NCBI RefSeq assembly: GCF_056712565.1
Contig: NZ_CM160072.1
Strand: one strand, 5' to 3'
Length of the DNA stretch: 64,000 nucleotides
The translations under genes and the position numbers were made by a program. Of this stretch, positions 6,846 through 58,792 are shown piece after piece. How positions within the stretch are numbered: the stretch's first letter is position 1; the number at the start of each line of letters is the position of its first letter. The notes under the pieces were generated by a model. The model had not been told where the DNA came from. It worked only from the letters and a program-made list of their open reading frames with translations, and did not search any database.

Positions 6846-8297
6846 TTAGCACAACGGGCGTACAGCTTCGCGCATCCCTTTTTCGAGAATCGCATCCAGG
6901 TCATTAGCAACCTGCTCGACCAGACCAGGCACTTGCGTCAGGTCCTGCTCCCAGTGGTCTTTTTCTGCCAACACAATCGCTACCAGTTCCTGGGTCCCGA
7001 TAACACGGTCACGATACTGGCTCCAGAGTTGCTGATAACGTTCCAGCCAGTGTGCATCGTCCTGTACCGGATATGTTTCTCCATTACGCTCACCGCGATA
7101 GAACGCAATCAATGCCGCTAATGCGAAAGTAAGGCGCGCCGGAAGTGTGCCGTTTGCCTTCTGCCCTGCCAGCAGCTGCGGCAGGATGCGTGTGCGGAAC
7201 TTGGTCATACCGTTGAGCGCGATAGACAGCAGTTGATGCTTGATGTACGGGTTACGGAAACGTCCGGTGACTGCACTGGCGAAAGACTCCAGCTCATCGC
7301 GTGGCAAATCCAGTACCGGAATAATTTCTTCGTAGATGGCTTTTTCAACGAATGCGCAAATTTCAGCATCGTTCATCGCTTCACCTACGGTATCCAGCCC
7401 TGCCTGGAACGCCACCGGCACCAGCGCGGTGTGCGCACCGTTGAGGATTGCCACTTTGCGTTCTTTATACGGTTTAATATCGTCAACGATCAGCACGTTG
7501 AGCGGATATTTGTCCAGACGAAGTTCAGTCGCTAAGGATTTCGGCCCCTGAATCACAAACAGGTAAAAGTGTTCAGCGGTGTCGAGGAAACCATCGTGGT
7601 AGCCCAGTTCTTCTTCCAGTTTAGCCACTTCATCACGCGGATAACCGGTAACGATACGGTCCACCAGCGTAGAACAGAAGCTGTTAGCCTGATCCAGCCA
7701 TTGAATAAATGCTTCTGGCAGTGCCCACTCTTGCGCATAGCGCAGCACCAGTTCACGCAACGCGTCGCCATTATAGTCAATCAACTCACACGGGATGATG
7801 ATCCAACCTTTATCCAGCGCACCGTTGAAATGGCTAAAACGTTCGAACAGCAGACGGGTCAGTTTTGCCGGATAACTTACCGCTGGCGCGTCATCGAATT
7901 TATCGCCCGCATGGTAGCTGATACCCGCTTCGGTGGTGTTAGAGAAAACAAAGCGCATTTCCGGATTGTGAGCCAGTTTCAGGAATTCATCGTATTCACT
8001 GTAGACGCTGATTTCACGATTAACCGAGCGAATCAGGCGCGCGTCGCTGACCGCTTCACCCTTCTCATTCAGGCCACGGATAATGGTGGTATAAAGACCA
8101 TCCTGCGTGCTCAGTGACGGCGGGAATGAAGTTTCAATCGGACGAACAACGACCACGCCAGAATTCAGATCGGTGTGCTCATTCAGGAGATCGATTTGCC
8201 AGTCAACAAAGGCGCGCAGGAAGTTACCTTCACCAAACTGAATGATACGTTCTGGATACTGTGCACCGGGAAAATCGCGACGATTTAGTGTTTTCAC
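6846..8297 (-). CDS. uxaB: Altronate oxidoreductase (tagaturonate reductase), 483 aa
   Basis: Full-length match to mannitol-dehydrogenase-family UxaB. Confidence 0.9.
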
Positions 8298-8324
8298 AAT
8301 GGGTTCCCTTCTGATTAGTCATAC

Positions 8325-8351
8325 AACCTGTTTGAATTGGTACGACAGGTT
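8325..8351. promoter_or_regulatory. Inverted repeat AACCTGT-N13-ACAGGTT upstream of uxaB; candidate operator (ExuR-type)
   Basis: Perfect 7-bp arms seen 28-54 nt upstream of the uxaB start; regulator assignment is inference. Confidence 0.3.
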
Positions 8352-8523
8352 AGCAAACTTTAATACGCCGAACCCCTGTTTTGATCAACTCCTGATGATT
8401 AATGAGCAGTTTTATGAGAAAAGTGTGGCGCGGATCATGGTTTAATCGAGGAAACAGGCCTTTTCTTGGATCATAAAGTGGTAGAACATATTGCATTTAA
8501 TTCGCTCTGAGTAAATAAAGATG

Positions 8524-9942
8524 TCAGACAACTTCCTCACCGTAACGCATAGTGCTGGTACGGTTGCGCCCATCTTTCTTCGAGCGATACAGACACGTAT
8601 CGGCTTCGACCATCAATTTATTAAAGTCATCGGTCAGCGTTCGGTACGATGCGCAACCACTACCGACGCCAATACTTACCGTGAGATAAAGCGTTTTTTG
8701 TTGCCAGGTGAACGGTTGAAGTTCTACGCCTTTACGGATTTTTTCCGCCATTAGCAGGCCATCGACAGGATTCACCGACGGCACTGCAACAGCAAATTCT
8801 TCGCCGCCCATTCGCGCCACCAGCCCCTTATCACCGACAATCTTCTGAATATGCTGGGCAAACACGCTTAACACTTTATCGCCACATTCATGTCCATAGT
8901 TATCGTTAATGCTTTTGAAATAGTCGATATCAAGCAGCATGACCGTCAGATGTTGTGTCTGTTTCAGCGATGGACTTTTCAGCGCCTCATAAAGACCAGA
9001 CCGTGAGTAAACCTGAGTCAGAAAATCAAAGTCGGCTCGCAGCGCAACTTGCTTCATTAGCGAATGGATCGCTGCCACGCTAAAGGAAACCATAATTGGG
9101 CATATCGCCATCGTGGCAATACCGAGACGTGCGGAGAACATTTGCGGAATAGAGAACGGCGAACCGACCGAGATATCAATCACCGAATTTGCCACCAGTA
9201 CGACTTCCACCGCACCGGTGACAAAGGTCAACAGACATGTTACCTGCGGCGTATAGCGCACTGCACACCAGATTAATGCAGGGAGCGGAAACGCCAGACT
9301 CCCCGCTCCACCAATGACTACCGAGGCAATAACCGACACAATAAGCGCGATAGCAGGCATCATCTGCTCTGCTTTAAAGCGCGGCAGCACTCCAGGAATT
9401 GCCAACGTCAGCATACAAGGCACGATCAACACGCCCGTTGAGAATTGCTCACTAAACCAGTCGGCAAGCAAAGGCCAGAAATCCAGACTATCAATACTGA
9501 CCGAACCAATCGCCCCGACAATAGCGCATAATAATGCGGCAAGCAGACAGTAATTAAATAGCCGTAAGGCACTTACTGGCTCATACTTATTTTTTCCCAG
9601 ACTCTTATCCCGCGCGACCAGTAAGGCGACGGTAACAATAAACATCATATTGGAGAAATTGATAGCCAGTGAAACCAGCCCCCATTCGGTGGTTATGGCA
9701 TCATAAACCAGCATCGCCACATAACTGATCGCATAGTAATGCAGTCGATTAAGCCAGACATAGCGGGCAAACACCCCCGCCATTACGCCATTCAGCGGCC
9801 AGAAAAGAGAAAGTTCGTGAACCAGTCGTAACTCTGCACCAATAAAATAGAACAGCGTGGTTAGCACAAAAATAGCGATGCTATTACGTAGCAGATGACC
9901 TTCCTGGAACAAACGGAAAGTTGAAATGGGCTGTACATGCAT
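8524..9942 (-). CDS. dgcF: Membrane-anchored diguanylate cyclase (GGDEF domain), 472 aa
   Basis: Multi-TM N-terminus, GGEEF active-site motif; position matches yneF/dgcF. Confidence 0.85.
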   Translation of the reverse strand: MHVQPISTFRLFQEGHLLRNSIAIFVLTTLFYFIGAELRLVHELSLFWPLNGVMAGVFARYVWLNRLHYYAISYVAMLVYDAITTEWGLVSLAINFSNMMFIVTVALLVARDKSLGKNKYEPVSALRLFNYCLLAALLCAIVGAIGSVSIDSLDFWPLLADWFSEQFSTGVLIVPCMLTLAIPGVLPRFKAEQMMPAIALIVSVIASVVIGGAGSLAFPLPALIWCAVRYTPQVTCLLTFVTGAVEVVLVANSVIDISVGSPFSIPQMFSARLGIATMAICPIMVSFSVAAIHSLMKQVALRADFDFLTQVYSRSGLYEALKSPSLKQTQHLTVMLLDIDYFKSINDNYGHECGDKVLSVFAQHIQKIVGDKGLVARMGGEEFAVAVPSVNPVDGLLMAEKIRKGVELQPFTWQQKTLYLTVSIGVGSGCASYRTLTDDFNKLMVEADTCLYRSKKDGRNRTSTMRYGEEVV

Positions 9943-54328: not shown

Positions 54329-54738
54329 TATCCTTCTCCTGCAAGAGAATTATTTTAATTTTCGCTTAATTCAGCGAAACCAAAGTAAAGTGATCAAGCC
54401 CCGCGCATAGCGCAAGCTTAGGCAGAAGAAAGGACTAAAGCGCGTTGCGCCAGTGCTGCTCACCTACGAGCAAGATAGTGGATGAGGTACGAAGATGGGT
54501 AAATGTAGAAAATAACGTCCTGAACAAATTGTCCATAATATTACAATTATCCGCAGTGTTGCTTCTCGTCCTCGCGGATGATAATTGTCCTCGGTAGTTG
54601 AACACGCCTGATTTGTATCACAGCTTAAGAATTAACTCAAAATATTTTCACTTCTTTACCTGAGCGGTTTGATTTTCGTTATGATGACGGAGCGGAAAAG
54701 ACATTATTATTAGCAAAGAAGAAAAAACGGGGACAAGC

Positions 54739-57196: not shown

Positions 57197-58792
<1,596 letters not shown>

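What the first reader, a model, noticed from the sequence alone, without database searches (positions are those of the whole stretch)
8325..8351. Perfect inverted repeat AACCTGT-N13-ACAGGTT upstream of uxaB
A 7-bp perfect inverted repeat lies 28-54 nt upstream of the uxaB start codon, positioned to overlap the promoter or 5' UTR. It is a candidate operator for the hexuronate regulators (ExuR/UxuR); the regulator assignment is not verified.
Basis: inference. Interest (0 to 1): 0.3.

Follow-up and report, generated by a model that had tools for sequence, protein, structure and literature searches.

The report
Known ExuR operator boxes before uxaB
The 7-bp inverted repeat upstream of E. coli uxaB is real, but its arms belong to two neighbouring binding boxes for the hexuronate repressor ExuR that cover the promoter, which is an ordinary and already described arrangement.

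Summary
The repeat AACCTGT-N13-ACAGGTT is at window 8325-8351, 28-54 nt upstream of the uxaB GTG (8297, minus strand). The window is E. coli.

A repeat like this is not unusual. About 0.56 such repeats are expected per 226 bp at this window's own rate. It is also not conserved: only 4 of 81 orthologous uxaB promoters keep all 7 pairs, and no changes are compensatory.

The conserved elements are two GntR/FadR-type boxes of the form 7-N3-7 with a GT-N3-AC core:
- O1, AACCTGT-CGT-ACCAATT (8351..8335).
- O2, AGGTTGT-ATG-ACTAATC (8329..8313), 22 bp from O1.

One arm of the repeat is the left half of O1. The other arm is 2 nt of gap plus the first 5 nt of O2.

The boxes match the E. coli exuT, uxaC and exuR operators and a matrix built from 48 published non-uxaB ExuR sites. 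They do not fit the N2-spaced UxuR type. O2 and a distal box (8517-8535) are already in a published ExuR site list. O1 is not in that list, although it is the best-conserved box (76 of 81 loci).

A published start site maps to 8337, so O1 covers the -10 element and the start, and O2 covers about +9 to +25.

The parts
6846..8297 (-). uxaB coding sequence (tagaturonate/altronate oxidoreductase), GTG start at 8297
   Evidence: ORF list. 100% identical annotated record NZ_CP033092.2.
8325..8331 (.). It consists of 2 nt of the O1-O2 gap plus the first 5 nt of box O2.
   Evidence: register relative to O2
8345..8351 (.). It is the promoter-proximal (left) half-site of box O1 and overlaps the -10 element.
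8335..8351 (-). ExuR-type box O1, AACCTGT-CGT-ACCAATT (GT-N3-AC core), centre 8343, about -14..+3 relative to the mapped start
   Evidence: Independent matrix: 12.8 bits, rank 4 of 63,980 positions. A box at -46/-47 is present in 76 of 81 orthologous loci. A matrix built from its orthologues finds the K-12 uxaC and exuT operators as the top two hits in 9 kb.
8313..8329 (-). ExuR-type box O2, AGGTTGT-ATG-ACTAATC, centre 8321, about +9..+25
   Evidence: Published predicted ExuR site for b1521, CAGGTTGTATGACTAATCA. Nearly invariant in orthologues. The core TTGTATGAC is identical to the exuT operator core. Its matrix score alone is weak: 8.6 bits, rank 12.
8476..8492 (.). Upstream ExuR-type box O3 (AAGTGGTAGAACATATT on the + strand), centre 8484, about -147
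   Evidence: Independent matrix: 11.2 bits, rank 6 in the window. Found only in Escherichia loci.
8517..8535 (-). Distal ExuR-type box O4, GAAGTTGTCTGACATCTTT, centre 8526, about -189. It overlaps the stop codon of the upstream diguanylate cyclase gene.
   Evidence: Rank 1 in the 64-kb window, 18.9 bits, with no shuffle position reaching that score. Listed as an ExuR site for b1521 in the PMC4494728 supplement.
8347..8355 (-). Probable extended -10 element TGCTAACCT (conserved pattern TGnTAAnnT)
   Evidence: Column conservation over 81 loci. It lies just upstream of the mapped start. The assignment is an inference.
8337..8337 (-). Published 'experimentally validated' uxaB transcription start (1608744 in U00096.2 coordinates), mapped onto the window
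   Evidence: PMC4447067 Table 1. The coordinate offset of 1976 was checked with lpp and uxaB positions in NC_000913.3. It lies 40 nt upstream of the GTG.
8424..8439 (.). CRP-like site TGTGG-CGCGGA-TCATG, centre about -94
   Evidence: Read from the sequence. The TGA...CACA columns are conserved. uxaB is cAMP-activated. Inference; not tested with a CRP model.
8304..8310 (-). Shine-Dalgarno region AAGGGAA

Best explanation
The repeat is a by-product of a composite ExuR operator at the uxaB promoter.

Anatomy (shown):
- Read in the uxaB sense, the DNA is TGCTAACCT(ext -10)...[AACCTGT CGT ACCAATT]=O1 CAAAC [AGGTTGT ATG ACTAATC]=O2 ...AAGGGAA..GTG.
- O1 and O2 are GntR/FadR-subfamily dyads of the form 7-N3-7 with a GT-N3-AC core.
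- Their centres are 22 bp apart, about two helical turns.
- Two more boxes lie about 140 bp and 185 bp further upstream.

Mechanism (inferred):
- Without hexuronate, ExuR dimers occupy O1, which covers the -10 element and the start point, and O2, which covers the early transcribed region. This blocks RNA polymerase binding or escape.
- The upstream boxes may add cooperativity or DNA looping.
- Inducer derived from galacturonate or glucuronate releases ExuR.
- cAMP-CRP, bound at a site centred near -94, then supports transcription.

Shown here: the boxes, their motif class, their conservation and their position. Inferred: occupancy by ExuR, the occlusion mechanism, any looping, and the CRP site.
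For: (1) The E. coli K-12 operator regions carry the same architecture. exuT has AAGTTGT-ATG-ACAAGTT, uxaC has AAGTTAT-CAC-ACCAATT and exuR has AAGTGGT-ATA-ACAAATA. The uxuA and uxuR sites have GT-N2-AC instead.
(2) PMC4494728 states that ExuR sites have 3 nt between GT and AC and UxuR sites have 2 nt.
(3) The supplement of that paper lists CAGGTTGTATGACTAATCA (O2) and GAAGTTGTCTGACATCTTT (O4) as ExuR sites of b1521, which is uxaB.
(4) I built a matrix from 48 published ExuR sites of other operons. It ranks O4, O1, O3 and O2 at positions 1, 4, 6 and 12 of about 64,000 in the window, all within about 225 bp.
(5) Matrices built only from non-Escherichia orthologues of O1 and O2 pick the K-12 uxaC and exuT operators as best hits in a 9-kb locus. 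They find nothing comparable in the uxu locus.
(6) Among 81 orthologous promoters, a box at -46/-47 is present in 76 and a box at -24/-25 in about 50, with constant 21-22 bp spacing.
(7) The published start site maps to 8337, inside O1.
(8) Literature states that ExuR represses uxaB and that uxaB is induced on glucuronate.
Against: - No binding data were available to me for these exact boxes.
- O2 scores only 8.6 bits with the independent matrix, and about 6.7 such hits are expected per 64 kb. Its support comes from conservation and the published list.
- O1's left half in E. coli (AACCTGT) departs from the usual AAGTTAT/AAGTTGT.
- The mapped start is 10 nt from the end of the proposed -10 hexamer, which is further than usual. 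Either the start or the hexamer assignment may be off by a few nt.
- The simple promoter scan found no sigma-70 consensus match.
- uxaB is also derepressed in a uxuR deletion, so UxuR or ExuR-UxuR heterodimers may take part.
Confidence: 0.8

Rival explanations
1. The repeat AACCTGT-N13-ACAGGTT is itself the operator. A dimeric regulator (ExuR, UxuR or another) would contact the two arms, which lie one helical turn further apart than in a normal GntR-type site.
For: The arms are perfect and lie at the promoter. Each arm ends in a GT/AC core, so the repeat reads GT-N13-AC, which is N3 plus 10 bp. PMC4494728 reports weaker extra half-sites 7-12 nt from the centres of GntR-family sites.
Against: All 7 pairs are kept in only 4 of 81 loci, and 50 loci keep 3 or fewer. 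On 24 diverse sequences no pair changes on both sides, and the paired fraction equals the shuffled control (67.1% against 66.8%). Most genera have AAGTTAT in place of AACCTGT, yet they keep the 7-N3-7 box. No published ExuR site has this spacing.
Confidence: 0.05
2. The repeat acts as a stem-loop. It could be an RNA hairpin at the 5' end of a uxaB transcript (affecting stability or translation) or a DNA hairpin or cruciform at the promoter. Alternatively it is a neutral product of quasi-palindrome template-switch mutation.
For: Other lineages carry different perfect repeats around the same spot: Enterobacter TGATAAG-N13-CTTATCA, Klebsiella AACCTGA-N20-TCAGGTT, and arms of 10 and 11 bp in K. 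indica and Intestinirhabdus. Fold-energy z-scores average -1.4 over 70 distinct segments. The Escherichia/Citrobacter changes from AAGTTAT to AACCT(G/A)T are exactly those that create complementarity to CAGGTT.
Against: The mapped start (8337) lies downstream of the 5' arm, so the arm would not be transcribed. For the E. coli 68-nt leader the z-score is only -0.34. RNAalifold gives a consensus energy of -0.06 kcal/mol with no compensatory pair. There is no Rfam match. Tandem dyad operators lower fold energies by themselves. There is no T-run, so it is not a terminator.
Confidence: 0.08
3. Box O1 is bound by a different FadR-subfamily regulator, such as FadR, rather than by ExuR.
For: AACCTGTCGTACCAATT resembles some published FadR sites, for example AACTGGTACGACCAATA. 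A FadR matrix ranks it 7th in the window.
Against: Its FadR-matrix score is 7.4 bits, compared with a training minimum of 7.0 and a median of 16.5. The ExuR matrix gives 12.8 bits. Orthologous O1 versions score 13-17 bits with the ExuR matrix and -0.4 to 9.9 bits with the FadR matrix. The gene is a hexuronate gene.
Confidence: 0.03

Closest known systems
ExuR operators of the E. coli exu regulon (exuT, uxaCA, exuR promoters)
   Same: They share the 7-N3-7 dyad with a GT-N3-AC core and A/T-rich flanks. The O2 core TTGTATGAC equals the exuT operator core. In most genera O1 (AAGTTAT-NNN-ACCAAT) equals the uxaC operator AAGTTAT-CAC-ACCAATT.
   Different: In E. coli the left half of O1 is AACCTGT and doubles as part of the -10 region. 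Two boxes sit in tandem 22 bp apart, with two further boxes upstream. O1 is absent from the published list I could read.
UxuR operators (uxuAB/gntP, uxuR)
   Same: The regulator is a paralogue in the same GntR/FadR subfamily, and the half-sites are similar (TTGGT/ACCAA).
   Different: UxuR sites have 2 nt between GT and AC, while O1-O4 all have 3 nt. Matrices from O1 and O2 find nothing strong in the uxu locus.
FadR operators
   Same: They share the GT-N3-AC spacing and the overall dyad.
   Different: The flanks differ (CTGGT...ACCAG). The FadR matrix scores all four boxes lower than the ExuR matrix does.
Extra half-sites next to GntR-family palindromes (PMC4494728)
   Same: A third half-site-like element (ACAGGTT) lies beside O1 on the same face.
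   Different: The reported extra boxes lie 7-12 nt from the site centre. This one is about 13.5-15 nt away, overlaps a second full box, and is not conserved.

Membership tests
ExuR (GntR/FadR-subfamily) operator | Dyad with TKGT-N3-ACMA core (3 nt between GT and AC) and A/T-rich flanks | tested here: met
O1 reads CTGT-CGT-ACCA, O2 reads TTGT-ATG-ACTA, and O3 and O4 fit likewise. The spacing rule comes from PMC4494728.
ExuR (GntR/FadR-subfamily) operator | Score within the range of accepted ExuR sites using a matrix trained on other operons | tested here: met
   The training range is 5.9-24.8 bits with a median of 18.6. O4 scores 18.9, O1 12.8, O3 11.2 and O2 8.6. They rank 1, 4, 6 and 12 in 64 kb, and all lie within about 225 bp. 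O2 alone is at chance level.
ExuR (GntR/FadR-subfamily) operator | Conserved at the same position in orthologous promoters of a hexuronate gene | tested here: met
   The box at -46/-47 is present in 76 of 81 loci and the box at -24/-25 in about 50 of 81. Column conservation supports this.
ExuR (GntR/FadR-subfamily) operator | Bound by ExuR protein, with the gene derepressed in exuR mutants and by galacturonate | not testable with these tools
   Only literature statements are available: ExuR represses uxaB and uxaB is induced on glucuronate. The primary operator papers were not held.
UxuR operator | 2 nt between GT and AC | tested here: not met
   All four boxes have 3 nt. The K-12 uxuA and uxuR sites have 2 nt. 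The rule is stated.
FadR operator | Match to the FadR matrix (consensus AACTGGTCAGACCAGTT) at the level of accepted sites | tested here: inconclusive
   O1 scores 7.4 bits against a training minimum of 7.0 and a median of 16.5. The score is always lower than with the ExuR matrix, and orthologues score -0.4 to 9.9 bits.
Structured RNA leader / known RNA family | Transcribed helix supported by covariation, or a match to a curated family | tested here: not met
   No Rfam match at E<=1. RNAalifold gives -0.06 kcal/mol. No pair has changes on both sides. The 5' arm lies upstream of the mapped start.
Intrinsic terminator | G+C-rich stem followed by a T-run | tested here: not met
   No terminator-like site in 8250-8560.

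The most novel reading that the evidence does not exclude
The invariant CAGG(T/C)T element just upstream of box O2 has independently acquired a perfectly complementary 5' partner in several enterobacterial lineages, each in a different register. These are Escherichia 7-N13-7, Enterobacter TGATAAG-N13-CTTATCA, Klebsiella AACCTGA-N20-TCAGGTT, and arms of 10-11 bp in two species. This could reflect selection for a DNA or RNA stem-loop at the uxaB promoter or leader, layered on the ExuR operators. It could also be a natural record of quasi-palindrome template-switch mutation.
Probability: 0.1. Interest if true: 0.35.

Novelty: already known. Interest (0 to 1): 0.12.

Why it matters
It matters little beyond annotation. 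uxaB has long been assigned to the ExuR-controlled exu regulon, and ExuR sites upstream of it are already in comparative-genomics tables.

Three details are useful:
- The correct operator geometry is two tandem 7-N3-7 boxes, not a 7-N13-7 repeat.
- Box O1 covers the -10 element and the start point. It is the best-conserved box across Enterobacteriaceae, yet it is missing from the published list I could consult.
- The conspicuous perfect repeat is lineage-specific and should not be used as the ExuR motif.

Tried and rejected
Literature and data look-ups that gave nothing:
- Key primary papers were not held: Suvorova 2011, Portalier 1980, Mata-Gilsinger 1983, Thomason 2015. I could not read the original operator-constitutive or S1-mapping data, or RegulonDB.
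- A full-text search for the operator strings found nothing relevant.
- Four attempts to find uxaB in genome-wide start-site supplements failed, because files were truncated or the gene was absent.
- The 'ExuR biosensor' papers concern a designed promoter and gave no native site. PMC6989600 and PMC9369180 gave no site data.

Analyses that gave nothing:
- The simple sigma-70 and terminator scan found nothing in 8250-8560.

Readings rejected:
- An RNA hairpin.
- FadR as the regulator of O1.
- A sigma-54 promoter. A weak RpoN gSELEX peak is reported near uxaB, but I could not fit a GG-N10-GC element by eye.
- A uORF starting at the ATG inside O2. It is out of frame with uxaB, and indels in orthologues shift it (read).
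- ExuR-matrix hits at 54608-54628 (tqsA-mdtJ intergenic) and 57785-57805 (inside pntA). These are at chance level.

Full report
**Observation.** The + strand at 8325-8351 reads AACCTGT-TTGAATTGGTACG-ACAGGTT, a perfect 7-bp inverted repeat with a 13-nt spacer. The window is E. coli: 6800-10000 is 100% identical to strain ATCC 11775 and is present in 5419 of 5426 complete genomes. uxaB (tagaturonate reductase) is the minus-strand ORF 6846..8297 with a GTG start. The gene upstream is a diguanylate cyclase gene (8524..9942), and yneE and tam lie downstream. The 53 bp around the repeat are identical in about 4999 of 5335 matching E. coli records.

The repeat is not a statistical outlier. The window holds 159 perfect 7-bp inverted repeats with spacers of 3-20 nt. 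That is 0.56 per 226 bp, the size of this intergenic region, and shuffles give about 0.25.

**What is conserved.** I fetched 80 orthologous uxaB loci from Enterobacteriaceae genomes and aligned the upstream regions. In the uxaB sense the E. coli sequence reads: TTGATCAAAACAGGGGTTCGGCGTATTAAAGTT TGCTAACCT GTCGTACCAATT CAAAC AGGTTGTATGACTAATC AGAAGGGAACCCATT GTG. The strongly conserved blocks are:
- TTGATCAAAACAGGG.
- TGnTAAnnT.
- ACCAAT.
- CAGG(T/C)TGTATGAC(T)AAT.
- The ribosome-binding region.

This is not complementary to the downstream CAGGTT.

**Motif class.** The E. coli K-12 operator regions of the exu regulon carry the same 7-N3-7 dyad with a GT-N3-AC core:
- exuT has AAGTTGT-ATG-ACAAGTT.
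- uxaC has AAGTTAT-CAC-ACCAATT.
- exuR has AAGTGGT-ATA-ACAAATA.

The uxuA and uxuR sites have GT-N2-AC instead. PMC4494728 states that ExuR sites have a 3-nt distance and UxuR sites a 2-nt distance.

The uxaB region holds two such dyads. O1 is AACCTGT-CGT-ACCAATT (8351..8335) and O2 is AGGTTGT-ATG-ACTAATC (8329..8313). Their centres are 22 bp apart. The supplement of PMC4494728 lists two ExuR sites for b1521 (uxaB). CAGGTTGTATGACTAATCA is O2. GAAGTTGTCTGACATCTTT is a distal box at 8517-8535 that I call O4. O1 is not listed for E. coli, C. koseri or K. pneumoniae.

**Independent tests.**
- I built a symmetrised matrix from 48 published ExuR sites of operons other than uxaB and scanned the 64-kb window. 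O4 ranks 1 (18.9 bits), O1 ranks 4 (12.8), a further box O3 at 8474-8494 ranks 6 (11.2), and O2 ranks 12 (8.6). Four of the top twelve positions therefore fall within about 225 bp. O2 alone is at chance level, since 6.7 such hits are expected per 64 kb.
- Matrices trained only on non-Escherichia orthologues of O1 and O2 were run on a 9-kb K-12 locus. They pick the uxaC operator (22.4 bits) and the exuT operator (16.0 and 16.4) as best hits. They find nothing above 8.8 bits in the uxu locus.
- Across 81 loci the independent matrix finds a box centred at -46/-47 in 76 loci, usually at 13-20 bits. It finds a box at -24/-25 in about 50 loci. The spacing is constant at 21-22 bp. O3 and O4 are confined to Escherichia, and Citrobacter has a single box near -209.
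- A FadR matrix scores every box lower than the ExuR matrix does.

**How the repeat relates to the boxes.** The arm at 8325-8331 is the last 2 nt of the 5-nt gap plus the first 5 nt of O2. Only 4 of 81 loci keep all 7 complementary pairs, and 50 keep 3 or fewer. On 24 diverse sequences no pair changes on both sides, and the paired fraction (67.1%) equals the shuffled control (66.8%; 284 of 500 shuffles are at least as high). The repeat is a feature of Escherichia and a few Citrobacter lineages. It is not the recognition unit.

**Promoter.** PMC4447067 Table 1 gives an 'experimentally validated' uxaB start at 1608744 in U00096.2 coordinates. I checked the offset of 1976 to NC_000913.3 using lpp and uxaB coordinates. 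With that offset the start lies 40 nt upstream of the GTG, which is window 8337, inside O1. The conserved TGnTAAnnT (8355..8347) looks like an extended -10 element. This assignment is an inference, and the start is 10 nt from the end of the hexamer, which is further than usual. The consensus scan found no sigma-70 match. That fits a weak, activator-dependent promoter, and uxaB is cAMP-activated. A CRP-like site, TGTGG-N6-TCATG, lies at 8424-8439 (centre about -94) with conserved TGA...CACA columns. On this map O1 spans about -14..+3 and O2 spans +9..+25.

**Mechanism (inferred).** ExuR dimers on O1 and O2 would block RNA polymerase binding or escape. The two boxes lie on one face of the helix, which suggests cooperative binding. 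O3 and O4 may stabilise repression by looping. Hexuronate-derived inducer would release ExuR. Literature supports the regulatory link: ExuR represses uxaB and uxaB is induced on glucuronate. uxaB is also derepressed in a uxuR deletion, so UxuR or ExuR-UxuR heterodimers may contribute, although the N3 spacing is the ExuR type.

**Rival readings.**
- *The 7-N13-7 repeat as the operator* fails on conservation.
- *An RNA hairpin* is unlikely. The 5' arm is upstream of the mapped start. The E. coli leader folds no better than shuffles (z -0.34). RNAalifold gives -0.06 kcal/mol with no compensatory pair. There is no Rfam match.
- *FadR as the regulator of O1* is disfavoured.

**Unexplained.** Several lineages have different perfect repeats around the same spot:
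- Enterobacter and Lelliottia have TGATAAG-N13-CTTATCA.
- Klebsiella has AACCTGA-N20-TCAGGTT.
- K. indica has 10-bp arms and Intestinirhabdus has 11-bp arms.

Fold-energy z-scores average -1.4 over 70 distinct segments. A weak GTYTGn/n'CAGGY complementarity shows some co-variation at two positions. Tandem dyads explain part of this. Selection for a stem-loop, or quasi-palindrome template-switch mutation, cannot be excluded.

**Novelty.** ExuR control of uxaB and ExuR sites upstream of it are already described. The finding is ordinary. The only additions are the corrected geometry and the observation that O1 is well conserved but absent from the one site list I could read.

Noticed in passing
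window 8516-8536 and 8474-8494: Two further ExuR-type boxes lie about 190 bp and 147 bp upstream of the mapped uxaB start, 42 bp apart. The distal box overlaps the stop codon of the upstream diguanylate cyclase gene and is the best ExuR-matrix hit in the whole window. They occur only in Escherichia; Citrobacter has one box near -209. Repression by looping is possible.
   Followed up: partly
window 8371-8388 (minus strand TTGATCAAAACAGGGGTT): This block is almost invariant in 81 Enterobacteriaceae uxaB promoters and contains a GATC palindrome (TTGATCAA). It lies about -34..-51 from the mapped start. In most genera it continues as AAAACAGGGTTTCAT, which by eye resembles a KdgR-type GAAACAnTGTTTC core. 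In E. coli the right half is degenerate. Its function is unknown.
   Followed up: no
window 8424-8439: A CRP-like site, TGTGG-CGCGGA-TCATG, is centred about 94 nt upstream of the mapped start. Its TGA...CACA columns are conserved in orthologues. This fits the cAMP activation of uxaB.
   Followed up: partly
loci L025-L081 (Enterobacter, Lelliottia), L052/L078/L080 (Klebsiella), L020 (Intestinirhabdus), about 1438-1480 in each locus: Different perfect inverted repeats flank ExuR box O1 in different registers: TGATAAG-N13-CTTATCA, AACCTGA-N20-TCAGGTT, and arms of 10 and 11 bp. All use the conserved CAGG(T/C)T region, or the gap just 5' of it, as the 3' arm.
   Followed up: partly
window 8524-9942 (minus strand): The gene upstream of uxaB is a 472-aa sensor-domain diguanylate cyclase in this strain. 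In K-12 MG1655 the corresponding gene dgcF (b1522) is annotated as only 948 bp, or 315 aa.
   Followed up: no
window 54608-54628 and 57785-57805: These are ExuR-matrix hits of 15.3 and 14.8 bits. The first lies in the tqsA-mdtJ intergenic region and the second inside pntA. Both are within the range of shuffled-sequence maxima (mean 13.1, highest 17.5), so they are probably chance.
   Followed up: partly
window about 8325 (K-12 position 1,608,732 in the source paper's coordinates): A published genomic SELEX screen lists a weak (38%) RpoN-holoenzyme peak between uxaB and yneF. I could not fit a sigma-54 -24/-12 element by eye.
   Followed up: no
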